64,000 nucleotides of DNA, from positions 1,228,901 to 1,292,900 of the forward strand of contig CBDHCY010000005.1 in the NCBI GenBank assembly GCA_965261485.1, given 5' to 3'. This DNA comes from Leptospiria bacterium (GTDB taxonomy: Bacteria; Spirochaetota; Leptospiria; Turneriellales; CBDBES01). The notes beneath the pieces are model-generated. The model searched no databases and was not told the origin of the DNA. It saw only the letters and a program-made list of their open reading frames with translations. Both the position numbers and the translations under genes were made by a program. This document shows positions 14,193-39,699 of this stretch, in pieces (position 1 is the first letter of the stretch; every line of letters begins with the position of its first letter).

Positions 14193-15050
14193 CTAGCTTT
14201 CCTTTATTTGACGACAAAATAAAATAAAAATTCCACAAGTTACAAACATAATCAAACTATACACTGCTGCGACAATTCCATAACTAGTATTCGCAAGAAG
14301 CAGTGTTGCGATTGAAATAGCTAGAGTTCCATTTTGGATTCCACTTTCAATTGCAATTGAAATACGCTGTTTGATGGATAAGTTTAAAATTTTACCAATA
14401 CCTAACCCAATTGACATTGCTGAAACATTTAATATGAGAGCTAATACACCCGCTTTTTGAAAATAAGGGATAACATTCTTTCTTTCGGCCATGATAATTC
14501 CAACAAAAATTAATACAAACACAATAACGGAAGCTCGGCGAACAATTGGTTCTACTTTTTTAGCGAATAGTTCTTTTTTAGCTCTCGTTAACATACCTAG
14601 AGTAACTGGAATAATTACAACAACAAATACTTGAGCGATTGTAGATAAAATATTTAGTTGTCTATCAGTATCTGACCCAAGTATCTCCCGAATACCAAAA
14701 TTAATCAGAAAAGGTATAGTAAACAATGTGATAAAACTACAAATTGCTGTTAAACTAACAGAGAGAGCAGTATCCCCTTTCGCCAAATAAGTTATCATGT
14801 TAGAGGTTGACCCACCCGGACAAGCGACCAAAATAACAATACCGATTAAAATCTCAGGAGGAGCAGAAATAGACTTAATCAAGATGAAACCAATAATTGG
14901 CAATAATATCAACTGACTCGTTAAACCAGCTAACATTGCTTTCGGCTTAACAAAAACTTGACGAAAATCCTCAAGAACCAATGATAGCCCCATCCCAAAC
15001 ATTATAATGATCAAAGACACAGCTAATATTATAGTAGATACTTTATCCAT
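14193..15050 (-). CDS. Bile acid:sodium symporter (BASS/SBF) family transporter
   Basis: 285 aa and polytopic. The N-terminus MFGMGLSLVLEDFRQVFVKPKAMLAGLTSQLILLPIIGF and ACPGGSTSN are characteristic of SBF-like transporters. Confidence 0.85.
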   Translation of the reverse strand: MDKVSTIILAVSLIIIMFGMGLSLVLEDFRQVFVKPKAMLAGLTSQLILLPIIGFILIKSISAPPEILIGIVILVACPGGSTSNMITYLAKGDTALSVSLTAICSFITLFTIPFLINFGIREILGSDTDRQLNILSTIAQVFVVVIIPVTLGMLTRAKKELFAKKVEPIVRRASVIVFVLIFVGIIMAERKNVIPYFQKAGVLALILNVSAMSIGLGIGKILNLSIKQRISIAIESGIQNGTLAISIATLLLANTSYGIVAAVYSLIMFVTCGIFILFCRQIKES

Positions 15051-15235
15051 ATATTTTAAACTCCAAATTTTTTTTACACATCACATACCATCCAGATATC
15101 AATAACCTTAGGTAAGATTTTTAAGATAGCCAGACTAACTTCTGGTTACTTAATTTAGCACAAATATCCCGACAAGTAAAATAAATGATTTATACATATT
15201 TAAAATATTTAGATCGTCTCAAGAAAGTTTTCCCT

Positions 15236-16988
15236 TCCACCCTTCGCTCAGAAATCAAAGCATCACTCGTGACTATCGGTCAGAGCACCCTCCAATCGCC
15301 ATCGCGATTGGCGATCGTCACTCTTCGCTCAGCGAGCAAGGCATCACTCGCTACTATCGGTCGCCACTCTTCGCTCAGAGATCAAAGCATCACTCGCGAT
15401 TGTCCGTCGACCTCCGCCCAGCGATCAAAGCATCACTCGCGATTGGCGGTCGGCCGTTTATCGTTGCCCTTCGAGCGAAGCATCACTCGTGACTATCGGT
15501 CAGAGCACCCTCCAATCGCCATCGCGATTGGCGATCGTCACTCTTCGCTCAGCGAGCAAGGCATCACTCGCTACTATCAGTCGCCACTCTTCGCACAACA
15601 AAGTATCACTAGCGATTATCGATCGGCACTCTTCGTACAACAAAGCATCACTCGCGACTTGTCGATCGTCACTCTCCGCTCAGAGATCAAAGCATCACTC
15701 GCGACTATCGGCGTTTTCTTCGCTCAGCGAGTAAAGCATCACTCGCGACTTGTCGATCGGCGTTTTCTTCGCTCAGCGAGTAAAGCATCACTCGCGACTT
15801 GTCGATCGGCGTGCCCTTCGCTCAGAGATCAAAGCATCACTCGTGACTGTCGGTTGGCTCTCTTCGCTCAGAGATCAAAGCATCACTCGCGACTGGCGGT
15901 CGTCACTCTTCGCTCAGAGATCAAAGCATCACTCGCGACTATCGGCGTTTTCTTCGCTCAGCGAGTAAAGCATCACTCGCGACTTGTCGATCGGCGTGCC
16001 CTTCGCTCAGAGATCAAAGCATCACTCGTGACTGTCGGTTGGCTCTCTTCGCTCAGAGATCAAAGCATCACTCGTGACTAGCGATCGTCACTCTTCGCTC
16101 AGCGAGTAAGCATCACTCGAGACTGTCGGTCGTCACCCTTCGCACAACAAAGCATCACTCGCGACTGTCGATCGTCACTCTTCGCACAACAAAGCATCAC
16201 TCGCGGCTTGTCGATCGCCACTCTTCGCCTTGCGAGCGAAGCATCATCCACAATTATCGATCGCCACTCTCCGCACAACAAAGCATCACTCGTGACTGGC
16301 GGTCGTCACTCTTCGCTCAGAGATCAAAGCATCACTCGCGATTGGCGATCGTCACTCTTCGCTCAGCGAGCAAGGCATCACTCGCTACTATCGGTCGCCA
16401 CTCTTCGCTCAGAGATCAAAGCATCACTCGCGATTGTCCGTCGACCTCCGCCCAGCGATCAAAGCATCACTCGCGATTGGCGGTCGGCCGTTTATCGTTG
16501 CCCTTCGAGCGAAGCATCACTCGAGACTATCGGTCGCCACCCTTCGCACAACAAAGTATCACTAGCGATTATCGATCGGCACTCTTCGTACAACAAAGCA
16601 TCACTCGCTACTATCGGTCGCCACTCTTCGCTCAGAGATCAAAGCATCACTCGCGATTGTCCGTCGACCTCCGCCCAGCGATCAAAGCATCACTCGCGAT
16701 TGGCGATCGTCACTCTTCGCTCAGCGAACAAAGCATCACTCGCGACTGTCGGTCGTCACTCTTCGCCCAGCGATCAAAGCATCACTCGTGACTGGCGGTT
16801 GACACTCTTTGTCTGCGAGTGCATCACTCGCGACTGTCGATCGTTTATCGTTGCCCGGAGAGCGAAGCATCACTCGTGACTGTCGATCGTCACCCTTCGC
16901 CCAGAGATCAAAGTATCACTCGCGATTATCGGTCGGCGTGCCCTTCGCCTAGCGAGCGAATCGCCATTCGTGACTGGCGGTCGACCGT
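15236..16988. repeat. GC/CpG-rich co-oriented tandem array of degenerate 42-47-bp units (about 37 units by eye), abutting the stop codon of the lipoprotein gene at 16989
   Basis: The core GCATCACTCG[CT]GA recurs every 42-47 bp (for example at 15261, 15341, 15387, 15430 ... 16867, 16913). Consensus unit: aaagcatcactcgcgactgtcggtcgtcactcttcgctcagagatc. The array has higher-order duplications (15302-15490 matches 16336-16524, and 15261-15360 matches 15481-15580). GC content contrasts sharply with the AT-rich surroundings. Confidence 0.95.
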
Positions 16989-18965
16989 TTATCGTTGCCC
17001 GGGGAGCAGAGTATCGTATGACGCACATACGCCGTTTGTTATTGGGCTGACACATCTTTTGATCGCAGGCAGCTGCTTGGCAGTGCCTAGGTCCCAAGCA
17101 CTACCTAAACCATCGGGGTGCATGCCAGTTATGCTCTTTAGCTGGGCCAGCGTAAGGCCCGTCGCATTTACACTACTCCCAGAATTTACACTACTCCCGG
17201 AACCCTGTGCCTTCTTATTCTCAAGCGTTCGTTCGGTGACATTCACACTTTGGGGTGCGTCGGTGTTCCAATAACTATCTGTTATCGTCATAATAAAAGA
17301 AGAAGCAAAAGGAGAAGCGCCCAGCAGACCACCTGAATTAGAAACAGCAATAGCAATACTACTAAAAGAAGAGATTTTACCAGAACCACTAAAATAACTA
17401 TTAGTTATTACTAAAGATTTCTCAGAATAACCCACCAGACCACCTGAAGTAGAACCAGCACTAGTATTATTAGAAGAAGAAAATATTTCACCAGAGCCAT
17501 TAAAATAACTATTCACTATCGTCAAAGAAGCAGAAGACTGGCCCACCAGACCGCCTGAAGTAGAATGCAAAACATTGGCATAAGAAGATATATCACCAGA
17601 ACCACTAACATAACTATTCATTATTACTAAAGAATTCTTAGAATAACCCACCAGACCGCCTGAGCCAAAAGACTTAAAAGTATTGGTAAGCTTGTTAGAG
17701 TAAGAAGAAACCCCAGCAGAACCACTAAAAATACTATTTATAATTACTAAACCAGTATCAGTTGAGGCGAAAACTTCACCCACCAAACCGCCTGATCGAG
17801 ACTGTTCAGAAGAACTAAAGACCCCACCTGAGCCACTGAAAGTGCATTCGCTTATTGTCAGAGAACCAGAAACACGACCAACCAAACCACCCACAGAATT
17901 AAAAGTAGTAACCAGAGCAGCATTAGCATAGATCGAGCCAGAGATGATCTCCACATTGCGAATCATTCCTCCATCTACCTGACCAAATAAACCGACAGCT
18001 ACAAGACTTGAATGCACCCAAAGATTGGCGATCGTATGATTATTTCCATCAAAAGTGCCAGTGAAGCTAGCAATAGTAGAGCCAATGGGTTCCAAAGAGG
18101 TGTCTATACTGGTGTCAATCACAGTTATCCGCTCGCCTGCATCGTCTTCATCACCGTCGGCATTTTTATCGATGCTCACCTCTGTTGTATCGATCACCCC
18201 ATTAGGTGTACCGTTCTTTCCACCGCCTGTATCAAGCAAGCTCAAAAGGTCAATGTTGGCTGTTAGCTCGTAGCCGTTGCAACTTCCTGAGGAGCAACCG
18301 CTTGAATTATTAGGTCCACCATTCTTCACACTTCTATAACTTGTGCCCGCCAAATTATGACGCATGTTATTGAGCATCTCAGCGGTATATATTTCAATTA
18401 AGCCATCACCATCATGATCAGCCTTAGAGCCTCCACCAGAGATCTCAACACCCGAAGCATAATTAAAGCTCATGTCATAAGCGAAAAGCTTATAAAAATA
18501 ATGGGTTGAAGCTGTAGCCTCGGAATCGATGAATGTAGTTTCGCTTGAGTTATACACCACCACACTTGAGGCACCAATTGACACGCCACTCGCATAATCT
18601 TGCCCTGTCGTGGGGGCATCTGATATGCTGCTTTCACTTCTCAAGATTAAAACCTTAGAAAAATCATCATCGCTAGGCTCGCTCCAAGTTAGAGTGATGC
18701 TAGTGCTATCTAAACTTGAGAAGCCACCACTTATAACGTTCTTTGGTGATGTTTTATCTTCTTCAGACCTAACACCCGGTCCTGGCATATCAGGTGCATC
18801 AGGTGCATCAGGTGAAACAGGTGGAACATTGTTGGGATTTTCTTTAGAACAAGACGCACCAAAAACGATACAAAATAATAAAAAACTAGCGACCACAGCC
18901 ATTAAACCACCTTTGATCACGCGAGCCACATAAAGTCTCATCCAATATTGTACATTTTCACACAT
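16989..18965 (-). CDS. Surface lipoprotein with FN3-like domain, Ca-binding DxDGDG motif and 6 GLUG-type (GGLVG) repeats (paralog L1)
   Basis: The ORF runs to 18998. I prefer the ATG at 18965 because GAGGAGG lies 6 nt upstream. Lipobox-type signal ...LLFCIVFGASC, FN3-like ITLTWSEPSDDDFSKVLILRS...YFYKLFAYD, then DHDGDGLIEIYTAEMLNNM. Six modules of GGLVGxSxxSLxIxNSYFSGSGxxSS follow, with the conserved C-terminus SYWNTDAPQSV...CASYDTLLPGQR. Confidence 0.85.
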   Translation of the reverse strand: MCENVQYWMRLYVARVIKGGLMAVVASFLLFCIVFGASCSKENPNNVPPVSPDAPDAPDMPGPGVRSEEDKTSPKNVISGGFSSLDSTSITLTWSEPSDDDFSKVLILRSESSISDAPTTGQDYASGVSIGASSVVVYNSSETTFIDSEATASTHYFYKLFAYDMSFNYASGVEISGGGSKADHDGDGLIEIYTAEMLNNMRHNLAGTSYRSVKNGGPNNSSGCSSGSCNGYELTANIDLLSLLDTGGGKNGTPNGVIDTTEVSIDKNADGDEDDAGERITVIDTSIDTSLEPIGSTIASFTGTFDGNNHTIANLWVHSSLVAVGLFGQVDGGMIRNVEIISGSIYANAALVTTFNSVGGLVGRVSGSLTISECTFSGSGGVFSSSEQSRSGGLVGEVFASTDTGLVIINSIFSGSAGVSSYSNKLTNTFKSFGSGGLVGYSKNSLVIMNSYVSGSGDISSYANVLHSTSGGLVGQSSASLTIVNSYFNGSGEIFSSSNNTSAGSTSGGLVGYSEKSLVITNSYFSGSGKISSFSSIAIAVSNSGGLLGASPFASSFIMTITDSYWNTDAPQSVNVTERTLENKKAQGSGSSVNSGSSVNATGLTLAQLKSITGMHPDGLGSAWDLGTAKQLPAIKRCVSPITNGVCASYDTLLPGQR

Positions 18966-19059
18966 AAAACGCCTCCTCAGACATTGACCGCATTTCACTA
19001 TGCCGATCTTGCAAATAAATTAAGTTAGAATCGCCTTCAATCTTGATGGGTGCTTCAAC

Positions 19060-19122
19060 ACCACGAAAAAAATAAAATAAAAGGCCAAAGATTTCAGCAA
19101 AAGCCACGACTTTTGCTGAAAT
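19060..19122 (-). terminator. Rho-independent-type terminator hairpin between the microsatellite and the L1 gene
   Basis: Perfect 13-bp inverted repeat atttcagcaaaag (19091-19103) / cttttgctgaaat (19110-19122) with a 6-nt loop. On the minus strand it is followed by ctttggccttttattttattttttt. Confidence 0.55.
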
Positions 19123-19232
19123 AACATGCATGATAATTAGGGCTAACGCCCCGCTTCTAAAATTTTTGAGAAAAATGCCGCGAAGGCACGACCTATTTTT
19201 TTTAGAGAATAAACTAAGACCTAAGTCTAGTG

Positions 19233-19386
19233 TCTGTAGTTCTGTAGTTCTGTAGTTCTGTAGTTCTGTAGTTCTGTAGTTCTGTAGTTCTGTAGTTCTG
19301 TAGTTCTGTAGTTCTGTAGTTCTGTAGTTCTGTAGTTCTGTAGTTCTGTAGTTCTGTAGTTCTGTAGTTCTGTAGTTCTGTAGTTC
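19233..19386. repeat. Perfect octanucleotide microsatellite (tctgtagt / actacaga), about 19 copies
   Basis: Uninterrupted tctgtagt repeats run from 19233 to about 19386. They lie between the stop of the Rpn gene (19563) and the terminator hairpin upstream of L1. Confidence 0.97.
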
Positions 19387-19562
19387 ATTCATTTTTCCAA
19401 GCCCCACACAGAGACAGCCTCAGTCAACAATGCCTGCACATGTTGTCAACGTTTTTTTATTTTTTATGTAAAATTGATGTCGCAACTTCGCACATGACGT
19501 GTGAAAAAAGCGGGTAAAAAAAGAGACTATTTTCTGCTAATCACAAACGATGCCAGATCCGC

Positions 19563-20564
19563 CTATGGTCGTAAATGCTCAATCTCTTCTATAGAAAGAC
19601 CGGTGCTTCTTGAGATCACTTTAATAGAGAAACCCTCTTTCAAGAGACTTTGAGCTACTTCAGCCTTGCCCTTAGCCACGCCCTTAGTCATGCCCTTAGT
19701 CATGCCCTCGGTTATGCCCTCGGTTATGCCTTCGGCTCTGCCCTTAGTCATGCCCTTAGTCATGCCCTCAGTTATGCCCTTAGCTATTAGCTCGTCTGCA
19801 ATGGATCTCATATCCCCTCCTGCCTTTGGTGAAATGTATTGCCCAGCACTCTTTACAATAAAATCAATAGTAAACCCGCCAGTGCTAGTAATAATATAGT
19901 TCAATAAAACATCAAGCATTTTCTTATTTTCTTGAGAGATTCGTGCATAATAATCTTTGAAAAGATCTTCTAAGCGTGACCTGCTCGATAAAAACCAAAT
20001 ATCCTGTAGACTTTTTAAAAATGCCTGTACAGCCACAGAGAAATCGGTGAACTCTGTTTTATCTGAGCGAAGATCAAGTAATTCATAGTGAAAGTCTGGT
20101 ATGTATTTTTGTAAAGACTTTCTCAGATGCTCAGGAATCACTAAAGAACTGCTGAAGAGCGTGGGAATATCCCACTCTTTTTTTCCGTGATAAAGCACTA
20201 AAGGAATCACGGGCATTGTGCTCGTTTTATAAATTCCAGCTAAATACATGAGAAGCTGTGAATGAATATTTTTTTCTTTATACGATTTATGTTCTATCAG
20301 ACAAAAAACGCCCAGCCTTTTTGATTCCAAAGATTTCGCAGATTCTGAATCTGATTGCTTTTTGATAGGTACGCTGTAGAGAATATCAGTGAATCGTTCT
20401 TGATCTGTTGCATCAATAAAGCACCCTTTCTCTATTTGTAATTTTATAAAGTCTAGCTCTGATGTGATCTCTTTAGGCAGAGCATTTTTAAGAAAATCTA
20501 CCGCATAAGTTTTTTGTGATAAAACTTGTTTGGTTATGATGTCGTGTTGGTTTAGCTTTGCCAT
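19563..20564 (-). CDS. Rpn/YhgA-like recombination-promoting nuclease (PD-(D/E)XK putative transposase family)
   Basis: 333 aa. The N-terminus (HDIITKQVLSQKTYAVDFLKNALP ... RFTDILYSV ... FCLIEHKSYKEK...QLLMYL) matches the Rpn/YhgA-like nuclease core. The C-terminus has 5-aa repeats (GITEG/GMTKG, 15-bp units, about 19672-19790) and a helix-rich tail (AQSLLKEGFSIKVISRSTGLSIEEIEHL) typical of the family. Confidence 0.8.
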   Translation of the reverse strand: MAKLNQHDIITKQVLSQKTYAVDFLKNALPKEITSELDFIKLQIEKGCFIDATDQERFTDILYSVPIKKQSDSESAKSLESKRLGVFCLIEHKSYKEKNIHSQLLMYLAGIYKTSTMPVIPLVLYHGKKEWDIPTLFSSSLVIPEHLRKSLQKYIPDFHYELLDLRSDKTEFTDFSVAVQAFLKSLQDIWFLSSRSRLEDLFKDYYARISQENKKMLDVLLNYIITSTGGFTIDFIVKSAGQYISPKAGGDMRSIADELIAKGITEGMTKGMTKGRAEGITEGITEGMTKGMTKGVAKGKAEVAQSLLKEGFSIKVISRSTGLSIEEIEHLRP

Positions 20565-20687
20565 AAGATGTTCATCTTATAATTGATAGACAAAGCAAAA
20601 ACCATTAAAAAATACTTTTGAAAGCGTCAATGGGGATTCAAGCTCTAAAGTTTGGGCAGGGCAGAATATTACTTACTCCCGACCTGC

Positions 20688-21785
20688 GAACAAAGCATCA
20701 CTCGCGACTGTCGGTCGTCACTCTCCGCACAACAAAGCATCACTCGCGATTATCGATCGTCACTCTTCGCCCAGCGATCAAAGCATCACTCGTGACTGGC
20801 GGTTGACACTCTTTGTCTGCGAGTGCATCACTCGCGACTATCGGCGTTCCCTTCGCCCAGAGATCAAAGCATCACTCGCGATTATCGATCGTCACTCTTC
20901 GCCCAACGATCAAAGCATCACTCGTGACTGTCGGGTCGTCACTCTCCGCACAACAAAGCATCACTCACAACTGTCGGTCGTCGTGCCCTTCGCTCAGAGA
21001 TCAAAGCATCACTCGCTACTTGTCGATCGACACCCTTCGCACAACAAAGCATCACTCGCGATTGTCCGTCGACCTCCGCCCAGCGATCAAAGCATCACTC
21101 GCGATTGGCGATCGTCACTCTTCGCTCAGAGAGCGAAGCATCACTCGCGATTGGCGATCGTCGACTCTCCGCCCAGCGATCAAAGCATCACTCGCGATTG
21201 GCGATCGTCGACTCTCCGCCCAGCGATCAAAGCATCACTCGCGATTGGCGATCGTCGACTCTCCGCCCAGCGATCAAAGCATCACTCGCGATTGTCCGTC
21301 GACCTCCGCCCAGCGATCAAAGCATCACTCGCGATTATCGGTCGTCACTCTCCGCACAACAAAGCATCACTCGCGACTATCGGCGTTCCCTTCGCCCAGA
21401 GAGCGAAGCATCACTCGCGACTGTCGGGTCGCCACTCTTCGCCCAGAGATCAAAGCATCACTCGTGACTGTCGGGTCGTCACTCTCCGCACAACAAAGCA
21501 TCACTCACAACTGTCGGTCGTCGTGCCCTTCGCTCAGAGATCAAAGCATCACTCGCTACTTGTCGATCGACACCCTTCGCACAACAAAGCATCACTCGCT
21601 ACTGTCGATCGTCACTCTTCGCACAACAAAGCATCACTCGCGACTGTCGATCGTCACTCTTCGCACAACAAAGCATCACTCGTGACTGGCGGTCGCCACT
21701 CTTCGCCCAGCGATCAAAGCATCACTCGCGATTATTCGGTCGGCGTGCCCTTCGCTCTGCGAGTGCATCACTCGCGACTGTCCGT
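20688..21785. repeat. Second GC/CpG-rich co-oriented array of the same 42-47-bp unit family (about 25 units by eye), abutting the stop codon of the lipoprotein gene at 21786
   Basis: The same GCATCACTCG[CT]GA core recurs at 20694, 20737, 20782 ... 21719, 21765. There is an internal duplication (20914-21060 matches 21454-21600) and a shared segment with array 1 (20782-20838 matches 16779-16835). Orientation relative to the adjacent gene is the same as in array 1. Confidence 0.95.
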
Positions 21786-23687
21786 TTATCGTTGCCCGGG
21801 GAGCAGAGTATCGTATGACGCACATACGCCGTTTGTTATTGGCCTGACACATCTTTTGATCGCAGGTAATTGCATATCGGTGCCTAGGTCCCAAGCACTA
21901 CCTAAACCATCGGGGTGCATGCCAGTTATGTTTTTTAGCTGGGCCAGCGTAAGAGCCCCATCCATACCCACAGCATTACCTCGTGCCTTCTTATCTTGGA
22001 GCGTTCGTTCGGCGACATTCACACTTTGGGGTGCGTCGGTGTTCCAATAACTATCTGTTATCGTTATAGAAGCAGCAAAACCATTTCCTATCAAACCACC
22101 TGAATTAGAACCAGCAATAGCAATACTAAAAGAAGAGATTTTACCAGAACCACTAAAATAACTATTAGTTATTGGCAAAGTACCTTCAGAAGAACCCACC
22201 AGACCACCTGAAGAAGAATTAGCAAGCCCATGATTAGAATAAGAAAAGATTTCACCAGAGCCATTAAAATAACTATTCATTATTGTCAAAGAAGCCTTAG
22301 AATAACCCACCAGACCACCTGAAGCAGAATGCAAAGCCTTGGTATAAGAAGATATATCACCAGAACCACTAACATAACTATTCATTATTACTAAAGACTT
22401 CCCAGAATAACCCACCAGACCGCCTGAGCCATAAGAGTCAGCAGTATTGGTAGGCTTGCTAGAGTAAGAAGAAACCCCAGCAGAACCACTAAAAATACTA
22501 TTTATAATTACTAAACTAGTACCAATCGAGGCGGAAACTTCACCCACCAAACCGCCTGATCGAGACTGTATAGAAGAACTAAAGACCCCACCTGAGCCAC
22601 TGAAAGTGCATTCGCTTATTGTCAGAGAACCATAAACAAGACCAACCAAACCACCCACAAAATTAAAAGCAGTAGCCAGATCAGCATAAATCGAGCCAGA
22701 GATGATCTCCACATTGCGAATTTGAACAGTTTCACTAGCTCCTCCATCTACCTGACCAAATAAACCGACAGTTGAAAGAGTTGAATGCATCCAAAGATTG
22801 GCGATGGTATGATTATTTCCATCAAAAGTGCCAGTGAAGTTATTAGTAGTAGCAATGGGTATCCAGGAGGTGTCCATACTGATGTCAATCACTGTTATCC
22901 GCTCGCCTGCATCGTCTTTATCACCGTCGGTATTTTTATCGACACTCTCCTCTGTTGTATCGATCTCACCGTTGGGGGCAACATAACCATTCTCACCAAT
23001 TTCACCAATCCCATCAAGCAAGCTCAAAAGGTCAATGTTGGCTGTTAGCTCGTAGCCATGGCAACCTGAGAGGCAACCGCTTGAATTAGGTCTACCATTC
23101 TTCACACTTCTATAACTTGTGCCCGCCAAGTTATGACGCATGTTATTGAGCATCTCAGCCGTATATATTTCAATTAAGCCATCCTCATCATGATCAGCCT
23201 TAGAGCCTCCACCAGAGATCTCAACACCCGAAGCATAATTAAAGCTCATGTCATAAGCGAAAAGCTTATAAAAATAATGGGTTGAAGCTGTAGCCTCGGA
23301 ATCGATGAATGTAGTTTCGCTTGAGTTATACACCACACTTGAGGCACCAATTGACACGCCACTCGCATAATCTTGCCCTGTCGTGGGGGCATCTGATATG
23401 CTGCTTTCACTTCTCAAGATTAAAACCTTAGAAAAATTAGTATCACTAGGCTCGCTCCAAGTTAGAGTGATGCTAGTGCTATCTAAACTTGAGAAGCCAC
23501 CACTTATAACGTTCTTTGGTGATGTTTTATCTTCTTCAGACCTAACACCCGGTCCCGGCATATCAGGTGCATCAGGTGAAACAGGCGGAACATTGTTGGG
23601 ATTTTCTTTAGAACAAGACGCACCAAAAACGATACAAAATAATATCAGAGCTTGAGCGATCTTGCAGAGTAATTTTATTATATTCAT
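21786..23687 (-). CDS. Surface lipoprotein with FN3-like domain, DxDxDG motif and 6 GLUG-type repeats (paralog L2)
   Basis: The ORF extends to a TTG at 23723. I prefer the ATG at 23687 (MNIIKLLCKIAQALILFCIVFGASC). The N-terminal roughly 170 aa are almost identical to L1. The centre is diverged and the C-terminus is ...CASYDTLLPGQR. Confidence 0.85.
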   Translation of the reverse strand: MNIIKLLCKIAQALILFCIVFGASCSKENPNNVPPVSPDAPDMPGPGVRSEEDKTSPKNVISGGFSSLDSTSITLTWSEPSDTNFSKVLILRSESSISDAPTTGQDYASGVSIGASSVVYNSSETTFIDSEATASTHYFYKLFAYDMSFNYASGVEISGGGSKADHDEDGLIEIYTAEMLNNMRHNLAGTSYRSVKNGRPNSSGCLSGCHGYELTANIDLLSLLDGIGEIGENGYVAPNGEIDTTEESVDKNTDGDKDDAGERITVIDISMDTSWIPIATTNNFTGTFDGNNHTIANLWMHSTLSTVGLFGQVDGGASETVQIRNVEIISGSIYADLATAFNFVGGLVGLVYGSLTISECTFSGSGGVFSSSIQSRSGGLVGEVSASIGTSLVIINSIFSGSAGVSSYSSKPTNTADSYGSGGLVGYSGKSLVIMNSYVSGSGDISSYTKALHSASGGLVGYSKASLTIMNSYFNGSGEIFSYSNHGLANSSSGGLVGSSEGTLPITNSYFSGSGKISSFSIAIAGSNSGGLIGNGFAASITITDSYWNTDAPQSVNVAERTLQDKKARGNAVGMDGALTLAQLKNITGMHPDGLGSAWDLGTDMQLPAIKRCVRPITNGVCASYDTLLPGQR

Positions 23688-23730
23688 AGGCGTCTTATGA
23701 AAGAAGTCTGTATATCCCGTCAAATAAAAT

Positions 23731-25713
23731 TTATTCTAAACTCTCTAACCATAATTTCACATCAGCATCGCTAGGCATTCTCCAATCTGTTCGTGATGAA
23801 AGAGCAACAGAGCCAATCTTTACTCCATCAGGCATCGCTGACCTCTTAAACTGATATTTAAAAAATCGCTTATAAAAAATAATAAGCCACTTTTTAATCG
23901 TTACTTGGTTATATTTTTTATTAAAGGCTGTCTCTGCTAAAAATAATATTTTTTTAGGATGAAAACCATAACGAATCATGTAAAAGATAAAAAAATCATG
24001 AAGCTCGTAAGGTCCAATTTTTTCTTCTGTTTTTTGAGTGATTCGCTCACCATCAGTTGGTAAAAGCTCAGGTGAAATCGGTGTGTCACAAATACTTTTA
24101 AGTACTTCTTGAATCTCCCCCTTATACTCAACCTCAGAAAACCACTCAACCAAAGAATAGACCAATGTTTTGGGCACACCAGAGTTTACCTGATACATCG
24201 ACATATGATCTCCATTATAGGTACACCAACCTAAAGCAATTTCTGAAAGATCACCAGTCCCTATAACTATACCATTGATTTGATTTGCAATATCCATAAG
24301 AATTTGTGTTCTTTCTCTCGCTTGAGAGTTTTCAAAAACAATATTGTATTGACCAATTTCATGTTGGATATCTTTAAAATGTTGATTTAACGCATTTGTT
24401 ATTTCGATTGTGCGTAAGCTAGCTCCTAATAAAGTACACAATTTTTGAGCGTTCTTTTTTGTCGTTTGGGTTGTACCAGGACCAGGCATTGTAATTACGA
24501 TAATATCTTTTGAAGAATAGCCTAATATCTGATAGGCTTTTAGAGTAACCAAAAAAGCTAAAGTGGAATCAAGACCCCCAGAAAGACCAATAACATTTTT
24601 TATAGAGCCTACTTTTTTAAGCCGTTTAACAAGAGCGGCGGTTTGAATAGAAAAAATCTCTTGGCAAACCTTTGAACGCTCTGATTTATCTTCTGGTACA
24701 AAAGGTTTTGGAGGTATAGAACGATACAAATTTTTAATGAAACACTTATCTCTATTTTTTTTGAGGAGATTAAGCTCAAAGGGAATTGTCGTATATGTGC
24801 TACTCGATGAAAATGTCGAAAAGACACTACTTTTAAGCCGTTCATGAGTAAGTCTGCCAATATCAATATCTGAAATAATGTACGAACCATCAAAACAAAA
24901 AAGTTGACTTTCTTTAAGTAAAACTCCATTTTCTGCAATTAAACAATGTCCAGAAAAAACAGTATCTGTCGTAGATTCATTAGGCCCAGCGGAGGCATAC
25001 AAATAAGCAGATAGACACCGAGCAGATTGTTGTTTAACTAAATCTCGACGATAATTAGCCTTACCCAAGGTTTCGTTTGAAGCTGACAGATTTAAAAAAA
25101 CATTCCCACCATTTAATGCCATTTCACTACTAGGTGGGTTGGGAGCCCATAAATCTTCACAGATATCAACACCAAAAATACATTCTTCAAAATCTCTAGC
25201 CTGAAATAAGAGGCGAGGACCAAATAATACTTTTTGTTCCCCAAAAATAATTGTTTGTGTTAGTTCCGTTTTTCCCGAACTAAACCAACGGTTTTCATAA
25301 TATTCATTTTTATTGGGTAAATATGACTTTGGTATCAAACCTAATAAATTACCTTGGCTAATAAATGCAGCAACATTATAGAGCCTCCCTTTAAGCTCTA
25401 TAGGTAAACCAACGATACAGGTCATATTTGTTTTAGCAGAAACTTTACTAATTATTTTTAATCCTTTTTTACACGCATCTAATAGATTTTTTTGATAAAA
25501 GAGATCTCCACAAGTATACCCGCTAATACAAAGTTCTGGGAAAAGAGCAATTTTTGATTGTTTGTTTGATGCAATTTTTAAGTGTTCTACAATATTATTT
25601 ATATTGTAATTCACATTGGCAACCTCTAATGGAGGGGAGTGAACCGTAACACGTAAAAATTGCAAATAGTCTACTTGCATAGACCTAGAATTAAACGAAT
25701 AACAAATTGTCAT
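23731..25713 (-). CDS. nadE: Glutamine-dependent NAD+ synthetase
   Basis: 660 aa. The N-terminal CN-hydrolase domain (FPELCISGYTCGDLF, CEDLW) is fused to an NAD synthetase domain (GLSGGLDSTL). The real start may be the internal ATG at 25680. Confidence 0.9.
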   Translation of the reverse strand: MTICYSFNSRSMQVDYLQFLRVTVHSPPLEVANVNYNINNIVEHLKIASNKQSKIALFPELCISGYTCGDLFYQKNLLDACKKGLKIISKVSAKTNMTCIVGLPIELKGRLYNVAAFISQGNLLGLIPKSYLPNKNEYYENRWFSSGKTELTQTIIFGEQKVLFGPRLLFQARDFEECIFGVDICEDLWAPNPPSSEMALNGGNVFLNLSASNETLGKANYRRDLVKQQSARCLSAYLYASAGPNESTTDTVFSGHCLIAENGVLLKESQLFCFDGSYIISDIDIGRLTHERLKSSVFSTFSSSSTYTTIPFELNLLKKNRDKCFIKNLYRSIPPKPFVPEDKSERSKVCQEIFSIQTAALVKRLKKVGSIKNVIGLSGGLDSTLAFLVTLKAYQILGYSSKDIIVITMPGPGTTQTTKKNAQKLCTLLGASLRTIEITNALNQHFKDIQHEIGQYNIVFENSQARERTQILMDIANQINGIVIGTGDLSEIALGWCTYNGDHMSMYQVNSGVPKTLVYSLVEWFSEVEYKGEIQEVLKSICDTPISPELLPTDGERITQKTEEKIGPYELHDFFIFYMIRYGFHPKKILFLAETAFNKKYNQVTIKKWLIIFYKRFFKYQFKRSAMPDGVKIGSVALSSRTDWRMPSDADVKLWLESLE

Positions 25714-31405: not shown

Positions 31406-33952
31406 CTATCTTTGCCCGGGGAGTAGGGCACCGTATGACGCACACGTCCTCCAATCAGTGACACCATTCGTTGTAATTGTGGGAATACACAACTTAACCG
31501 CGGGTAATTGCATGTTGCTGCCTAGGTCCCAAGCTTTTGTGTTATCAGCAGCACTATGTGAGAGACCACCGTCGGGATCGGTGTTACTTATGGCTTGTAG
31601 TTGCACTAGCGTAAGACCTGTTATACCTGATGGGTCAACTACATCCGCGGCATTACCCAATGCCCGATCGGCGACGAGCGTTTGTCCAGAGATACTTTGA
31701 GGTGCATCGGTATTCCAGTAAGACCTCATGACTGTCAAAGAAGAAAGAATTCGCCCCACCAAACCGCCAGAATAAGAAAAAGGATCTACGAAAGAAGATA
31801 CACCACTAGAACCACTAAAATAACTATTCACTATTATTGAAGAAGCTCCCAAATAACCCACCAGACCACCAGAATAAGAAGGAGCAGCAGCAGAAGAAGA
31901 AGAGACTTCACCAGAACCACTAAAATAACTATTCACTATTCTTGAATCACCAGCAGAATAACCCACCAGACCACCAGAAGCAGAATAAGAAGCAGCAGAA
32001 GAAGAAGAAGAAGAAACTCCACCAGAACCACTAAAATAACTATTCACTATTTTTGAAGCACTCGCAGAAAAACCCAGCAGACCACCTGAATAAGCATAAG
32101 AAGAAGAAGAAGAGGAGACTCCACCAGAACCACTAAAATAACTATTCACTATTATTGGAGCACTAGCAGAAGAACCCACCAGACCACCGGCAATAGTAGA
32201 AGGAGTAGTAGAAGGGGAGGAAGAGAAGGAAGATACACCACCCAATCCACTAAAATAGCTGCTAATCATCGTCAAAGAAGAAAGAGTTCGCCCCACCAAA
32301 CCGCCAGAAGAGGAAGCATAAGAAGAAGAAGAAGAAGAGACTCCACCAGAACCACTAAAATAACTATTAGTTATTGTCAAAGAAGAAGTGTTGGAAAGTC
32401 CCACTAGACCACCTGAATAAGAAAAAGAAAAAGAAGAAGAAGAGACTCCACCAGAACCACTAAAATAACATTTGATTATCCTCAAAACACCTTCAGAAGA
32501 ACCCACCAGACCACCTAAAGAAGAAGCAGCAAAAGAAGAAGAAGAGACGACTCCACCAGAACCACTAAAATAACTATTTATTATCGTCAAATCATCTTCA
32601 GAAGAACCCACCAGACCACCGGCAATAGTAGAAAGAGTAGTAGAAATAGAAGAAGCAAATACTGATCCTGAAATGATTCCCACATTGTGAATCTCTACAG
32701 ACCCTTTGACAAAACCAAATAAACCCGCATAAACATCACTTGTGGAAGAATCAATATTCACCCAAAGATTCCCAATGGTATGGTTGTTACCCTCGAAAAT
32801 GCTAGTAAATGGAGCAGATGCATCGCCAATAGGCACCCAGCTTGTGTCTTTGCCCGTGTCCGTATTAATCACCTTCACCTTCTCACCTGCATCATCAGTG
32901 TTTCCGTTGGCATTTTTATCAATGCCCTTCGGCGTCGTATCGATTTTTCCATTTCTGTTTGCATCAAGCAAACTCAAAAGATCAATATGGGCTGTTAACT
33001 CATAGCCATTGCAAACGTTGTTTGGACAACCATCAACATTACCTCTTGCTTGTTCTGCTGCCGAGCTTTTATAACTTGCACCTGCCAAATCATGACGCAT
33101 GTTATCGAGCATTTCAGCAGTATATATCTCAATCAAGCCATCACCATCATGATCGGCCTTAAAGCCTCCGCCAGAAATTTCAATACCTGAAGCATAATTA
33201 AAACTCGAATCATAAGCAAATAGCTTATAATAATAATGGGTTGAGGCTACTCTAGCCCCTGCCTCGGAATCTTTAAATGTAGTTGTATTTGAGTTATACA
33301 CCATGATTGAGCTACCAATTGAATTAGAATTTGCATAATCTTGCCCTGTTGTTGGAACATATGATATTGAATTTTCACTCCTTAAAATCAAAATTTTATA
33401 AAAATTAGCACCGATAGGGTTGCTCCAAGCTAGAGTTATGCCCTCATTATCTAAATTTAAAAACCTACTATTTATGACATTTTTGGGTGATGTGGGTGAT
33501 ATGGTACCTCCTTCAAATTCAACGCCCGAAGCATAATTAAAGCTACTGTCATAAGCAAAAATCTTATAAAAATAAGTGGCACCTTCTGTAATTTTCATGT
33601 CTGTAAAAGTTGACATCTCTGCGTGATGCACCACTTTTGAGCCACCAATCAAATCAACATTTACATAGCTTTTCCCTACCTCAGGAGTATCTGATATTGA
33701 GCTTTCACTCCTTAAAATTAAAACCTGAGAAAAATCAACATCGGTAGGGTTGCTCCAGCTTAACATTATTTCGTTTGAATTACGCCGAAAAACAAAATTT
33801 GTGATATTGCCTGGTGGGTTCTCATCTAAGATTATTGGTAATCTATCATTTGGTAGATCACTCAGATCTTTTTTAACACAAAACGCACTAAAGATGATGC
33901 AAACTAAGACTAAACCTCGGGTAACCTTAAACAATGATTTAACTACACTCAT
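31406..33952 (-). CDS. Surface lipoprotein with two FN3-like domains, DHDGDG motif and 9 GLUG-type repeats with Ser tracts (paralog L3)
   Basis: 848 aa. Signal MSVVKSLFKVTRGLVLVCIIFSAFC, two copies of the [IM]LSWSNPTD/ITLAWSNPI...YFYK[IL]FAYDSSFNYASG module, and nine GGL[VL]G modules. The C-terminus is ...CASYGALLPGQR. Confidence 0.85.
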   Translation of the reverse strand: MSVVKSLFKVTRGLVLVCIIFSAFCVKKDLSDLPNDRLPIILDENPPGNITNFVFRRNSNEIMLSWSNPTDVDFSQVLILRSESSISDTPEVGKSYVNVDLIGGSKVVHHAEMSTFTDMKITEGATYFYKIFAYDSSFNYASGVEFEGGTISPTSPKNVINSRFLNLDNEGITLAWSNPIGANFYKILILRSENSISYVPTTGQDYANSNSIGSSIMVYNSNTTTFKDSEAGARVASTHYYYKLFAYDSSFNYASGIEISGGGFKADHDGDGLIEIYTAEMLDNMRHDLAGASYKSSAAEQARGNVDGCPNNVCNGYELTAHIDLLSLLDANRNGKIDTTPKGIDKNANGNTDDAGEKVKVINTDTGKDTSWVPIGDASAPFTSIFEGNNHTIGNLWVNIDSSTSDVYAGLFGFVKGSVEIHNVGIISGSVFASSISTTLSTIAGGLVGSSEDDLTIINSYFSGSGGVVSSSSFAASSLGGLVGSSEGVLRIIKCYFSGSGGVSSSSFSFSYSGGLVGLSNTSSLTITNSYFSGSGGVSSSSSSYASSSGGLVGRTLSSLTMISSYFSGLGGVSSFSSSPSTTPSTIAGGLVGSSASAPIIVNSYFSGSGGVSSSSSSYAYSGGLLGFSASASKIVNSYFSGSGGVSSSSSSAASYSASGGLVGYSAGDSRIVNSYFSGSGEVSSSSAAAPSYSGGLVGYLGASSIIVNSYFSGSSGVSSFVDPFSYSGGLVGRILSSLTVMRSYWNTDAPQSISGQTLVADRALGNAADVVDPSGITGLTLVQLQAISNTDPDGGLSHSAADNTKAWDLGSNMQLPAVKLCIPTITTNGVTDWRTCASYGALLPGQR

Positions 33953-34001
33953 TCAAACATCTCTATCTATTATAAAATATACCTCAACTCTTCACGGAAG
34001 A

Positions 34002-34030
34002 TTATCTCATGGAAGATATATTTTGTCAAA
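34002..34030 (-). promoter_or_regulatory. Sigma-70-like promoter candidate for L3 (TTGACA-N17-GATAAT)
   Basis: On the minus strand, ttgaca (34030-34025), a 17-nt spacer, then gataat (34007-34002), about 50 nt upstream of the L3 ATG at 33952. Confidence 0.45.
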
Positions 34031-34104
34031 TATAAAAATAATAAAGTTGATCAAAAAAAATATTTTTTCATGGCAGAATATCTACCCAAAATCTCAGTTC
34101 AGCC

Positions 34105-36676: not shown

Positions 36677-36724
36677 TCAAACATCTCTATCTATTATAAA
36701 ATATACTCCAACTCTTCACGGAAG

Positions 36725-36753
36725 ATTATCTCATGGAAGATATATTTTGTCAA
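36725..36753 (-). promoter_or_regulatory. Sigma-70-like promoter candidate for L4 (TTGACA-N17-GATAAT)
   Basis: Same motif pair as upstream of L3: ttgaca at 36753-36748 and gataat at 36730-36725 on the minus strand. Confidence 0.45.
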
Positions 36754-36828
36754 ATATAAAAATAATAAAATTTATCAAAAAATTTATTTTTTCATGGCAG
36801 AATATCTACCCAAAATCTCAGTTCAGCC

Positions 36829-39561
<2,733 letters not shown>

Positions 39562-39699
39562 TCAAACATCTCTATTTATTAGAAAATATACCTCAAACTC
39601 TTCATGGAAGATATATTTTGTCAAATATAAAAATAATAAAGTTGACCAAAAAAATTATTTTTTCATGGCAGAATATCTACCCAAAATCTCAGTTCAGCC

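What the first reader, a model, noticed from the sequence alone, without database searches (positions are those of the whole stretch)
15236..23723. Duplicated lipoprotein-plus-3'-repeat-array modules flanking an Rpn-type recombination nuclease: a candidate undescribed variation or recombination locus
**Layout (seen in sequence).** On the minus strand the order is: nadE, L2 lipoprotein, array 2 (about 25 units), Rpn/YhgA-like nuclease, (actacaga)x19 microsatellite, terminator hairpin, L1 lipoprotein, array 1 (about 37 units).
- L1 and L2 are nearly identical over the N-terminal roughly 170 aa and again at the C-terminus, but mosaic in between.
- Both stop codons run directly into co-oriented arrays of the same GC/CpG-rich 42-47-bp unit.
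- The four subfamily-B paralogs at 31-42 kb have no such array.
- The arrays share segments with each other (16779-16835 matches 20782-20838).

**Interpretation (inference).** Rpn-family proteins are described as RecA-independent recombination-promoting nucleases. A nuclease gene sandwiched between two hyper-repetitive modules attached to surface-protein genes suggests a dedicated recombination or variation cassette. Two alternatives are a 3'-UTR RNA-element system, or a mobile module that duplicated as a unit. I know of no described system with this layout.
Basis: partly seen in the sequence, partly recalled or inferred. Interest (0 to 1): 0.85.

Follow-up and report, generated by a model that had tools for sequence, protein, structure and literature searches.

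The report
Repeat arrays behind variable lipoprotein genes
Two surface-lipoprotein genes each run straight into a long array of a 46-bp non-coding repeat; comparison with a second strain shows that the locus breaks, recombines and changes gene number at these arrays, and that the arrays also hold toxin-nuclease (rpn) genes, so the nuclease looks more like a passenger than a dedicated switch.

Summary
The layout is real. On the minus strand the order is nadE, L2, array of 25 units, rpn, (ACTACAGA)19, L1, array of 38 units, SBF transporter. All 63 units in the 64-kb window lie in the two arrays.

A second strain of the same species (flanks 97.6-99.2% identical) has four L-array modules in the same nadE-SBF interval instead of two. 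Array lengths and microsatellite copy numbers differ, and the L alleles are mosaic. The structural difference is bounded by the conserved 5' block of L2 and the last unit of array 1. One array in that strain is a chimera of the starts of both window arrays.

Every primary array seen (10 of 10) starts at an L stop codon. Seven of 8 rpn genes seen in this species lie directly 3' of array units, some embedded between units. An XhlA-like small gene also sits inside arrays.

The Rpn is an ordinary RpnL/RpnS-type intragenic toxin-antitoxin nuclease, with at least 21 paralogs in the 2.13-Mb genome that differ in 4-aa repeat number.

No conserved RNA fold, coding potential or CRISPR, integron or NIME signature was found. 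The unit was not found outside this species.

Best reading: a lineage-specific 3'-UTR minisatellite acting as dispersed homology. A dedicated Rpn-driven system is not shown.

The parts
23731..25713 (-). nadE (glutamine-dependent NAD synthetase). It belongs to the conserved right flank of the variable interval.
   Evidence: Matches CN_hydrolase and NAD_synthase. Window 23013-30340 is 98.6% identical to the second strain.
21786..23687 (-). L2, a head-type GLUG-repeat lipoprotein with leader MNIIKLLCKIAQALILFCIVFGASC. The first ~675 bp form the conserved 5' block. The rest is variable.
   Evidence: ORF. Identical to P0001 (633 aa). Weak GLUG match. Strain homology breaks at 23013. Mosaic pattern. 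dN/dS is 1.1-1.5 in the middle.
20677..21785 (-). Array 2: 25 units of 42-48 bp, non-coding, starting at the L2 stop codon.
   Evidence: Its first two units are 100% identical to the array at the lepA locus of the second strain.
20565..20676 (-). Remnant of the original L 3'UTR (GGGAGTAAGTAATATTCTGCC) followed by the rpn 5' flank with TTGACG...TTAATG.
   Evidence: The remnant is homologous to the subfamily-B 3'UTR GGGTAGATATTCTGCC. The rpn 5' flank is shared with other rpn copies from 20658 downwards.
19563..20564 (-). rpnL: an Rpn/YhgA-type PD-(D/E)XK nuclease gene of 333 aa.
   Evidence: PF04754 at E 2.8e-33. TIGR01784 scores 62.9 against a cut-off of 52.1. D8, D60 and E91-x-K93 are present. 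One of at least 21 paralogs in the genome.
19563..19811 (-). Putative intragenic rpnS (antitoxin) frame. AGGAGG lies 5 nt before the internal ATG (Met252), followed after 12 residues by nine 4-aa repeats (12-bp repeat at 19667-19783).
   Evidence: The architecture is as described in PMC10400941. Expression was not tested.
19467..19562 (-). rpn 3' flank, ancestral to the rpn cassette.
   Evidence: Shared with rpn copies in L113, L115 and L130, and recognisable in another species (L131).
18958..19466 (-). Leader of follower-type L genes. It holds (ACTACAGA)19 at 19233-19384, two ATGs in different frames at 19392 and 19388, an open frame running through the repeat to a TGA at 18960 that overlaps the L1 ATG (ATGTGTGA), and hairpins at 19177-19192 and 19091-19122.
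   Evidence: The same leader precedes an L gene downstream of tyrS with no rpn nearby (L128). Copy numbers in the other four copies are 14, 9, 13 and 10.
16989..18965 (-). L1, a follower-type GLUG-repeat lipoprotein. AGGAGG lies 6 nt before the ATG at 18965, and the leader is MCENVQYWMRLYVARVIKGGLMAVVASFLLFCIVFGASC.
15238..16988 (-). Array 1: 38 units, starting at the L1 stop codon. It contains higher-order repeats, with exact internal duplicates of up to 188 bp.
   Evidence: Only its last unit (up to 15288) is colinear with the second strain.
14193..15050 (-). SBF-family transporter gene. It belongs to the conserved left flank of the variable interval.
   Evidence: Pfam SBF. Window 12061-15288 is 97.6% identical to the second strain.
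31406..42303 (-). Four tandem subfamily-B GLUG lipoprotein genes, one of them split. They serve as an internal control: same C-terminus, but no array, no rpn and no microsatellite.

Best explanation
**What it is.** The 46-bp arrays are a lineage-specific, non-coding minisatellite. It grew inside the 3'UTR of one branch of a large GLUG-repeat surface-lipoprotein family, starting from a short segment that spans the stop codon.

**How it works.**
- The same repeat now follows many L genes, so it provides 0.5-2 kb of homology on the 3' side of each gene that can pair in any register.
- Together with the nearly identical first ~600 bp of the genes, it brackets the variable middle.
- Ordinary homologous recombination and slippage between these blocks then produce four outcomes:
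  1. patchwise gene conversion, giving mosaic L alleles;
  2. unequal crossing-over that changes the number of L-array modules;
  3. rapid change in array length and unit order;
  4. copying of anything embedded in an array from one array to another.
- The rpn genes are typical RpnL/RpnS toxin-antitoxin (antiphage-type) nuclease cassettes. They, and an XhlA-like small membrane-protein gene, ride in the arrays and multiply with them.
- The 8-bp microsatellite belongs to the leader of follower-type L genes. It is most likely a separate slippage-prone element affecting translation of a leader frame that ends on the L start codon.

**Shown versus inferred.**
- Shown: the anatomy, the recurrence of the module, the differences between strains, mosaic genes, chimeric arrays, and the family membership and copy number of Rpn.
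- Inferred: that the arrays cause the recombination rather than merely record it, that Rpn is a passenger, and that the microsatellite switches expression.
For: **Arrays are tied to L genes.**
- All 10 primary arrays seen start at an L stop codon: window x2, the nadE chain x4, and the lepA, tyrS, L129 and L130 loci.
- The sequence after array 2 is homologous to the array-less subfamily-B 3'UTR. The gene end GGGCAACGATAA recurs inside the arrays.

**The second strain is the same species but structurally different.**
- Flanks are 97.6-99.2% identical, and the differences are mostly substitutions.
- Between nadE and SBF it has 4 modules against 2 in the window. Arrays have 23, 11, 21 and 12 units against 25 and 38.
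- The colinear flanks end at 23013, inside the conserved L2 5' block, and at 15288, in the last array unit.

**Genes and arrays exchange segments.**
- In 100-bp windows, the lepA-locus gene of the second strain is 97% like L1 at 701-800 and 97-99% like L2 at 901-1100.
- Its array begins with the first two units of array 2 (100%) and continues with the start of array 1 (97%).
- Exact blocks of 83-85 bp are shared between the two window arrays, and of 223 and 171 bp between arrays of the other strain.
- dN/dS is 1.1-1.5 over L codons 190-560.

**Rpn looks like a passenger.**
- There are at least 21 paralogs, differing mainly in 4-aa repeat number; all lengths are 1 mod 4.
- It has an internal SD/ATG.
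- The cassette junctions with the arrays differ between copies, and there are no terminal inverted repeats. This matches the published picture of rpn genes spreading by duplication of genomic regions rather than transposition (PMC10400941).
- Two adjacent rpn copies in L129 differ only by two 4-aa repeats and are separated by array units.
- A second, unrelated cassette (XhlA-like) sits in arrays at three loci.

**Other roles for the units were not supported.** There is no excess RNA folding (z -0.24 and -0.54) and no consensus structure on either strand. Unit lengths of 42-50 bp are not multiples of three.
Against: - The link between arrays and recombination is correlative. Breakpoints would be hard to place anywhere else in such repetitive DNA.
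- Only two strains were compared. The second comes from low-coverage metagenome contigs (names carry 2x-4x), so misassembly inside repeats cannot be excluded.
- The rest of the 2.13-Mb source genome could not be read, so genome-wide counts of arrays, rpn genes and L genes are missing.
- The same unit positions are conserved in both strains (GAGTGATGCTT, G.GCG, G.CGA, CG). This could reflect a binding site rather than homogenisation.
- The 7-of-8 adjacency of rpn to units, with units directly after the rpn stop codon in L129, is tighter than simple hitch-hiking requires.
Confidence: 0.55

Rival explanations
1. A dedicated programmed-variation system. The adjacent Rpn nuclease cuts within the array next to an L gene. 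The break is repaired from another L-array locus, so the variable part of the lipoprotein is replaced at high frequency.
For: - rpn lies directly 3' of array units in 7 of 8 copies seen.
- Mosaic L genes and chimeric arrays exist.
- Rpn proteins raise RecA-independent recombination in E. coli (PMC5350276).
Against: - There are at least 21 rpn paralogs for a handful of such loci.
- The gene has the toxin-antitoxin architecture with hypervariable 4-aa repeats (PMC10400941).
- Arrays and mosaic genes also occur at loci without rpn: lepA, tyrS, and the SBF-proximal array.
- RpnA showed no sequence specificity in vitro.
- In a more distant species, rpn sits next to an L homolog with no array.
Confidence: 0.12
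2. A selfish or integron-like cassette platform. The 46-bp unit is the recognition or homing site of this Rpn clade, read through its C-terminal helix-turn-helix-like domain. rpn and other cassettes are inserted into or copied between arrays by Rpn itself, and the lipoprotein genes are bystanders whose 3' ends happen to carry the target.
For: - In L129, rpn genes are embedded between array units. Units resume 1-2 nt after the stop codon.
- A solitary unit follows the rpn pair in L130.
- A second cassette type sits in arrays with a constant junction.
- A conserved core is shared by all units in both strains.
Against: - The array-rpn junctions fall at different unit positions, and the cassette ends vary: -55, -94 or -136 on the 5' side, and +1 or about +97 on the 3' side.
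- There are no target-site duplications or inverted repeats.
- Every primary array starts at an L stop codon, which points to origin with the L gene.
- Published analysis finds no evidence that rpn genes transpose.
Confidence: 0.15
3. A functional array acting as RNA or as a protein-binding platform. Examples are a long structured 3'UTR that stabilises or terminates L transcripts, or a bank of operator sites that titrates RpnS/RpnL and controls rpn expression.
For: - The arrays are co-oriented with and contiguous to L. No terminator was detected between L, the array and rpn.
- A small imperfect hairpin, CTTYGMTC-N3-GRGCGRAG, pairs in 86% of cells when G-U pairs are allowed.
- The arrays reach to 55 nt from the rpn start in several copies.
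Against: - Folding energy is no better than shuffles on either strand.
- RNAalifold gives no consensus structure.
- There are no compensatory changes, and many C-A cells occur.
- There is no Rfam match.
- Unit number varies from 5 to over 43 without an obvious constraint.
Confidence: 0.08
4. An inert satellite. The arrays are junk DNA inherited with duplicated gene segments. The variation between strains is driven entirely by the coding homology of the L family and by selection on the proteins, with the arrays contributing nothing.
For: - The unit is confined to one species. It is absent from JGI metagenomes, IMG/VR and plasmids, and from a related species.
- Subfamily-B genes form a tandem cluster without any array.
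Against: - One boundary of the structural difference between strains lies in an array.
- Arrays at different loci are chimeras of one another, with crossovers at unit cores.
- Cassettes are found specifically within arrays.
Confidence: 0.1

Closest known systems
Neisserial intergenic mosaic element (NIME) arrays: dRS3 repeats separated by RS elements
   Same: - Both are non-coding repeat arrays next to surface-protein genes.
- In both, arrays sit at syntenic positions but differ in repeat number and length between strains.
- In both, recombination end-points fall in or near the arrays, other elements insert opportunistically, and the arrays are proposed substrates for homologous recombination or a specific recombinase (PMC1797815).
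   Different: - There is no 20-bp dRS3 inverted repeat.
- This is one homogeneous 46-bp unit in head-to-tail copies, not mosaics of more than 100 RS families.
- The arrays begin exactly at the stop codon of one gene family.
- The organism is an AT-rich flagellated diderm, not Neisseria.
RpnL/RpnS intragenic toxin-antitoxin nucleases (Rpn/YhgA family, PF04754, TIGR01784)
   Same: - PD-(D/E)XK domain with the catalytic acidic residues.
- An internal start for a small C-terminal protein.
- A 4-aa repeat number that is hypervariable between copies.
- Many copies per genome and tandem duplicates.
- No inverted repeats or target duplications (PMC10400941, PMC5350276).
   Different: Here the genes are embedded in, or directly follow, a specific tandem repeat attached to lipoprotein genes. 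[quoted passage not shown]
Chromosomal integron cassette arrays (for example Vibrio VCR/attC arrays)
   Same: Repeat-gene-repeat-gene organisation, as in L129 (array-rpn-array-rpn-array-small gene). The cargo includes toxin-antitoxin-type genes.
   Different: - No integrase was found in the window.
- The units lack an attC-like conserved imperfect palindrome.
- Several to dozens of tandem units lie between genes.
- The cassettes carry their own upstream regions.
REP/BIME clusters with their RAYT transposases
   Same: A short GC-rich extragenic repeat clustered at the 3' ends of genes, associated with a nuclease or transposase-like gene flanked by the repeats.
   Different: - The units are not palindromic and do not alternate in orientation.
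- The associated protein is a PD-(D/E)XK Rpn, not a Y1 (HUH) transposase.
- The repeats are confined to one gene family's 3' ends rather than spread genome-wide, as far as could be seen.
Ssn nuclease and NTS repeats of Neisseria
   Same: A nuclease gene family associated with a short repeat that is present in many copies around important genes and shapes genome dynamics (PMC11893778).
   Different: - Ssn is a GIY-YIG single-strand-specific enzyme with demonstrated sequence specificity.
- No specificity is known for Rpn, and none was tested here.
Simple-sequence contingency loci (phase variation by slipped-strand mispairing)
   Same: An 8-bp unit repeated 9-19 times just upstream of a surface-protein gene, with a different copy number at every copy of the leader.
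   Different: - The repeat lies in a leader frame that ends on the L start codon, not in the L coding sequence or between promoter hexamers.
- All three frames of the repeat are open, and two ATGs in different frames precede it.
- An on/off effect is therefore unproven.

Membership tests
Rpn/YhgA family (PF04754, TIGR01784) | Transposase_31 / PD-(D/E)XK domain scoring above the curated cut-offs | tested here: met
   PF04754 at E 2.8e-33, 115.7 bits against a cut-off of 21. TIGR01784 at 62.9 bits against 52.1. The nearest plasmid homologs are all annotated as Rpn family.
Rpn/YhgA family (PF04754, TIGR01784) | Catalytic residues equivalent to RpnA D11, D63 and E82-x-Q/K84 | tested here: met
   D8, D60 and E91-H-K93 are present in the sequence and kept in all paralogs read. 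The residue list is from PMC5350276. The positions were matched by eye, not by a structural alignment.
RpnL/RpnS intragenic toxin-antitoxin | An internal translation start giving a small C-terminal protein, with 4-aa repeats beginning 8-20 residues after that Met and varying in number | tested here: met
   AGGAGG lies 5 nt before the ATG of Met252, and the repeats begin 12 residues later. Paralogs carry from about 1 to 14 repeats, and the full-length ones are 301-349 aa, all 1 mod 4. The criterion is from PMC10400941.
RpnL/RpnS intragenic toxin-antitoxin | Toxic nuclease activity, neutralisation by the cognate RpnS, and protection against phage | not testable with these tools
   Needs expression and plaque assays.
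NIME arrays | dRS3 inverted repeats (ATTCCC-N8-GGGAAT) flanking RS elements | tested here: not met
   No match in the window with up to 1 mismatch. The units are one homologous family.
NIME arrays | Non-coding arrays next to surface-protein genes whose length varies between strains and which coincide with recombination end-points | tested here: met
   This is a functional resemblance only.
Integron | IntI tyrosine recombinase with attI next to the cassette array | tested here: not met
   No integrase, recombinase or reverse-transcriptase domain in any ORF of at least 150 aa scanned in the window, and none in the precomputed Pfam listing for the genes called in the fetched loci of the second strain.
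Integron | attC sites with a conserved imperfect-palindrome fold | tested here: not met
   RNAalifold gives no consensus structure on either strand. The only candidate stem has 62% Watson-Crick cells.
CRISPR array | Identical repeats separated by unrelated spacers, with cas genes nearby | tested here: not met
   The whole 42-50-bp unit aligns between copies, and the same positions vary in all arrays. No cas domains were found in the window.
REP/BIME with RAYT | Palindromic units in alternating orientation, with a Y1 transposase flanked by them | tested here: not met
   All units in an array are on one strand. There is no palindrome. The associated gene is an Rpn.
Diversity-generating retroelement | A reverse transcriptase with a template repeat and a variable repeat at the 3' end of the target gene | tested here: not met
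   No RT domain in the window. The variation is patchwise between paralogs, not adenine-specific.
Simple-sequence contingency locus | A repeat tract whose length changes switch expression of the adjacent gene | tested here: inconclusive
   The tract length differs at all five copies: 19, 14, 9, 13 and 10 units. The frame through the tract stays open in all four copies tested, so no OFF state was seen. Expression is not testable here.
Bacterial lipoprotein | A signal peptide ending in a lipobox cysteine | not tested
   The sequence shows LFCIVFGASC after a basic and hydrophobic N-terminus in L1, L2 and the paralogs. No signal-peptide predictor was available.

The most novel reading that the evidence does not exclude
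The 46-bp unit is the cognate DNA site of this expanded Rpn clade. The arrays would then be a previously unrecognised, integrase-free cassette platform. Rpn nucleases would cut or bind the unit core, which would both drive copying of rpn and other small toxin-like cassettes between arrays and trigger replacement of the variable part of the adjacent surface lipoprotein. That would give Rpn proteins their first natural DNA target and a role in programmed surface variation.
Probability: 0.15. Interest if true: 0.85.

Novelty: new variant of a known kind. Interest (0 to 1): 0.55.

Why it matters
- Non-coding repeat arrays that promote exchange of neighbouring surface-protein genes have been argued for mainly in Neisseria. 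The authors of that work wrote that such arrays had not been seen elsewhere (PMC1797815). This locus is an independent example with a much simpler repeat, in an unrelated AT-rich bacterium, with two strains already showing different module numbers.
- It is also, as far as the searched literature goes, the first setting in which rpn genes sit inside a specific repeat. [quoted passage not shown]
- That makes two open questions testable with simple oligonucleotide and deletion experiments: how rpn genes multiply, and whether Rpn nucleases have preferred DNA targets.
- If the arrays are only passive homology, the finding is still a clean natural case of a minisatellite shaping a bacterial surface-antigen family.

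Tried and rejected
1. **Genome-collection scan.** My single scan (AGTGATGC-N30-42, three times) was too loose. None of the 112 loci contains GAGTGATGCTTTG. As a result the source genome and other species' genomes could not be searched for arrays.
2. **Fetching the source genome.** Exact look-ups of window proteins and of paralogs P0003 and P0004 failed. The other loci of the 2.13-Mb genome were therefore never seen.
3. **Stricter pattern elsewhere.** The pattern returned only unrelated repeats in JGI metagenomes and IMG/VR. There was no blastn match in plasmids. No relatives of Rpn or L2 were found in viral contigs, and no L2 relative in plasmids.
4. **Coding arrays: rejected.** Unit lengths of 42-50 bp break any frame. 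The long plus-strand ORFs match only other array ORFs of the same species.
5. **RNA element: rejected as unsupported.** There is no Rfam family, folding z-scores are -0.24 and -0.54, and there is no alifold structure. My own two-hairpin proposal shows only one-sided changes and many mismatches.
6. **CRISPR, integron, NIME, REP and DGR readings: rejected** on their defining features (see the membership rows).
7. **Transposon-like rpn cassette: rejected.** The ends vary and there are no inverted repeats.
8. **PDB sequence search with Rpn.** It gave only spurious ankyrin matches.
9. **Organism.** It could not be named. No source names were attached to any protein.

Full report
**1. What is in the window**

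- nadE lies at 23731-25713.
- L2 lies at 21786-23687.
- A tandem array lies at 20677-21785.
- An Rpn/YhgA gene lies at 19563-20564.
- A perfect (ACTACAGA)19 tract lies at 19233-19384.
- Two terminator-like hairpins follow.
- L1 lies at 16989-18965.
- A second array lies at 15238-16988.
- An SBF transporter gene lies at 14193-15050.

Splitting on the conserved core, and an nhmmer scan with a profile built from 123 distinct units, give 38 and 25 units. All are on the minus strand, and there is no further unit anywhere in the 64 kb. The arrays are 48-55% G+C in a region of about 27-36%.

A unit is 42-50 bp, with the consensus GAGTGATGCTTyGmTCkCTGrGCGrAGrGTGaCGAyCGmcAgTCrC. The same positions are conserved and the same positions vary in both strains examined. 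Both L stop codons lie in unit-like sequence, and the gene end GGGCAACGATAA recurs inside array 1.

**2. What the arrays are not**

- They do not code. Unit lengths are not multiples of three. The long plus-strand ORFs match only other array ORFs of the same species among 5.8 billion proteins.
- They match no Rfam family, and there is no tRNA in the window.
- Three hundred nucleotides of array fold no better than dinucleotide shuffles on either strand (z -0.24 and -0.54).
- RNAalifold finds no consensus structure in 123 units on either strand.
- A small hairpin I proposed by eye pairs in 86% of cells only if G-U pairs are allowed. It shows no two-sided changes.
- They are not CRISPR-like, because the whole unit is homologous between copies.
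- There is no dRS3 motif.
- No integrase, invertase, reverse transcriptase or cas domain was found in the window.

**3. A second strain**

The L2 protein search showed that the source is a 2,133,161-bp contig carrying at least 27 proteins of the L family. That genome could not be fetched.

Contigs from one ENA metagenome assembly (ERZ26693861) carry close relatives. Their housekeeping flanks are 97.6%, 98.6% and 99.2% identical to the window over 3.2, 7.4 and 3.7 kb, and the differences are mostly substitutions. This is therefore another strain of the same species.

In that strain the nadE-SBF interval reads: nadE, L, array (23 units), rpn, (ACTACAGA)14, L, array (11), rpn, (ACTACAGA)9, L, array (21), rpn, (ACTACAGA)13, L, array (12), SBF. 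That is four modules against two in the window.

Colinearity with the window ends at 23013, about 675 bp into L2, and at 15288, inside the last unit of array 1. The contig names indicate low coverage, so a misassembly inside repeats cannot be fully excluded.

**4. Grammar of the module**

Other loci of the second strain show the following arrangements.
- uvrB-lepA, L, array (10 units), small gene, array (6 units), SBF-like gene.
- tyrS, (ACTACAGA)10, L, array of at least 43 units.
- L, array (19), rpn, array (6), rpn, array (5), small gene, tRNA-like sequence (read by eye, not scanned), asd.
- L, array (20), rpn, rpn, one unit, small gene.

From these, three patterns follow.
- All 10 primary arrays start at an L stop codon.
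- Seven of 8 rpn genes have units directly 5'. In L129, units resume 1-2 nt after the rpn stop codon.
- The microsatellite and about 80 bp upstream of it belong to the leader of follower-type L genes, not to rpn. The same leader follows tyrS with no rpn present.

The rpn cassette has variable ends. On the 5' side the arrays abut at -55, or the flank extends to -94 or -136. On the 3' side there are either about 97 bp of ancestral flank or array units. There are no terminal inverted repeats.

In another species from the same sample (Rpn 76% identical), rpn lies next to a convergent L homolog with no 46-bp unit.

The unit was not found in JGI metagenomes, IMG/VR or plasmids. My one scan of the genome collection was wasted on too loose a pattern.

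**5. Origin of the arrays**

The subfamily-B genes at 31-42 kb end with the same ...LLPGQR*. A short 3'UTR containing GGGTAGATATTCTGCC follows. The sequence right after array 2 is GGGAGTAAGTAATATTCTGCC. The array therefore sits inside the original L 3'UTR, immediately after the stop codon. Units carrying GGGCAACGATAA look like copies of the stop-codon region. That the arrays expanded from this segment is an inference.

**6. Evidence for recombination**

- In 100-bp windows, L1 and L2 are 95-100% identical over positions 101-600 and 60-94% identical beyond. The lepA-locus gene of the second strain is 97% like L1 at 701-800 and 97-99% like L2 at 901-1100.
- L2 is only 78.5% identical in protein to the gene at the same position in the other strain. 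L1 is only 45% identical to its positional counterpart.
- The array at the lepA locus begins with the first two units of window array 2 (100%) and continues with the start of window array 1 (97%, 89%).
- Exact blocks of up to 188 bp repeat within arrays. Blocks of 83-85 bp are shared between the two window arrays, and of 223 and 171 bp between arrays of the other strain. Few blocks are shared between strains.
- dN/dS is 1.1-1.5 across L codons 190-560 and 0.4-0.6 at the C-terminus.

**7. What the Rpn is**

- It meets the Pfam and NCBIfam cut-offs and keeps D8, D60 and E91-x-K93. These correspond to the residues shown to be essential in RpnA (PMC5350276).
- It has AGGAGG 5 nt before an internal ATG (Met252), followed 12 residues later by nine 4-aa repeats. 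This is the RpnL/RpnS gene-within-gene toxin-antitoxin architecture, for which phage defence has been shown (PMC10400941).
- The source genome holds at least 21 distinct paralogs, 76-100% identical to the window copy. They differ mainly in repeat number, and all the full-length ones (301-349 aa) are 1 mod 4 in length.
- The two adjacent copies in L129 differ only by two repeats.
[quoted passage not shown] RpnA cuts DNA without detectable specificity.

**8. Second passenger**

A small gene encoding a coiled-coil protein with a C-terminal membrane segment sits within or at the distal end of arrays at three loci. It has a weak XhlA-like match, below the cut-off. All three copies share the same upstream junction. 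More distant paralogs form a seven-gene tandem cluster at window 6609-9806.

**9. Interpretation**

The best-supported reading is a lineage-specific minisatellite in the 3'UTR of one branch of a surface-lipoprotein family. It acts as dispersed homology that can pair in any register. With the conserved 5' block it brackets the variable part of the genes. This explains mosaic alleles, change in module number, array turnover and the spread of embedded cassettes.

Rpn is most simply a multicopy toxin-antitoxin passenger. It remains possible that it contributes breaks or recognises the unit core, but this was not tested.

The closest described analogue is the NIME array of Neisseria (PMC1797815). 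This locus resembles it in behaviour but fails its defining sequence feature.

Noticed in passing
window 6609-9806 (+): Seven tandem paralogous small genes (88-132 aa). Each has an identical N-terminus, 2-7 copies of an 11-aa coiled-coil repeat (DRIDSVENKLS, 33-bp DNA repeat) and a C-terminal membrane segment. The Pfam match to XhlA is weak and below cut-off, and PHROGs matches are holin/hemolysin-like.
   Followed up: partly
L114 12429-12695; L129 about 3787-3905; L130 from about 4395: A related small coiled-coil/membrane gene is embedded in, or sits at the distal end of, the 46-bp arrays at three loci of the second strain. All share the same upstream junction, cTTGACAGGyTGArGCTTyAAAGTTAGGCTCACCTATG. 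This is a second cassette type riding in the arrays.
   Followed up: partly
window 18958-19392 (-): An open frame starts at either of two ATGs in different frames (19392, 19388). It runs through the 8-bp microsatellite, where all three frames encode the same octapeptide repeat, and through both hairpins. It ends at a TGA that overlaps the L1 start (ATGTGTGA). The frame is open in all four copies where it was tested, although amino-acid changes look near-neutral. This suggests that translation of the leader matters more than the peptide (coupling or attenuation).
   Followed up: partly
source genome (not in window); proteins P0126-P0138, P0203-P0215: All the full-length Rpn paralogs of the genome (301-349 aa) have lengths equal to 1 mod 4. 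They differ by whole 4-aa repeats (about 1 to 14). This fits the published idea that repeat number insulates cognate RpnL/RpnS pairs.
   Followed up: yes
window 34105-36676 (-): One of the four subfamily-B lipoprotein genes is split into two overlapping ORFs of 451 and 433 aa. It is either a frameshifted pseudogene or a slippage site in its repeat region.
   Followed up: no
L113 11302-12949 and 15379-17254: The two internal L genes of the four-module chain in the second strain are broken into 2-3 ORFs, and two of its three rpn genes are also split. These could be silent or decaying copies, or indel errors of a low-coverage assembly.
   Followed up: no
L131 11020-11110: In the related species without arrays, the 3' end of the L homolog (GCAACGATAG) is present twice about 60 bp apart. 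This may be a first duplication of the stop-codon segment of the kind that could seed an array.
   Followed up: no
window 16989-18998 (-): The L1 protein is absent from the 15-billion-protein collection with any of three start codons. L2, the Rpn and the array ORFs of the same genome are present. P0002 and P0004 carry the L1-type leader but are different genes. Unexplained.
   Followed up: partly
window 56617-57462 (-): A 281-aa flagellin with only the conserved N- and C-terminal domains. lpxA, a TolB/Pal-like gene and a TonB-dependent receptor lie elsewhere in the window.
   Followed up: no
L128 3228-3885: The 723-aa L gene downstream of tyrS has a different N-terminal region containing a 357-bp internal duplication. 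It still carries the follower-type leader, the microsatellite and a 3' array of at least 43 units. The array is therefore not restricted to one narrow subfamily.
   Followed up: partly
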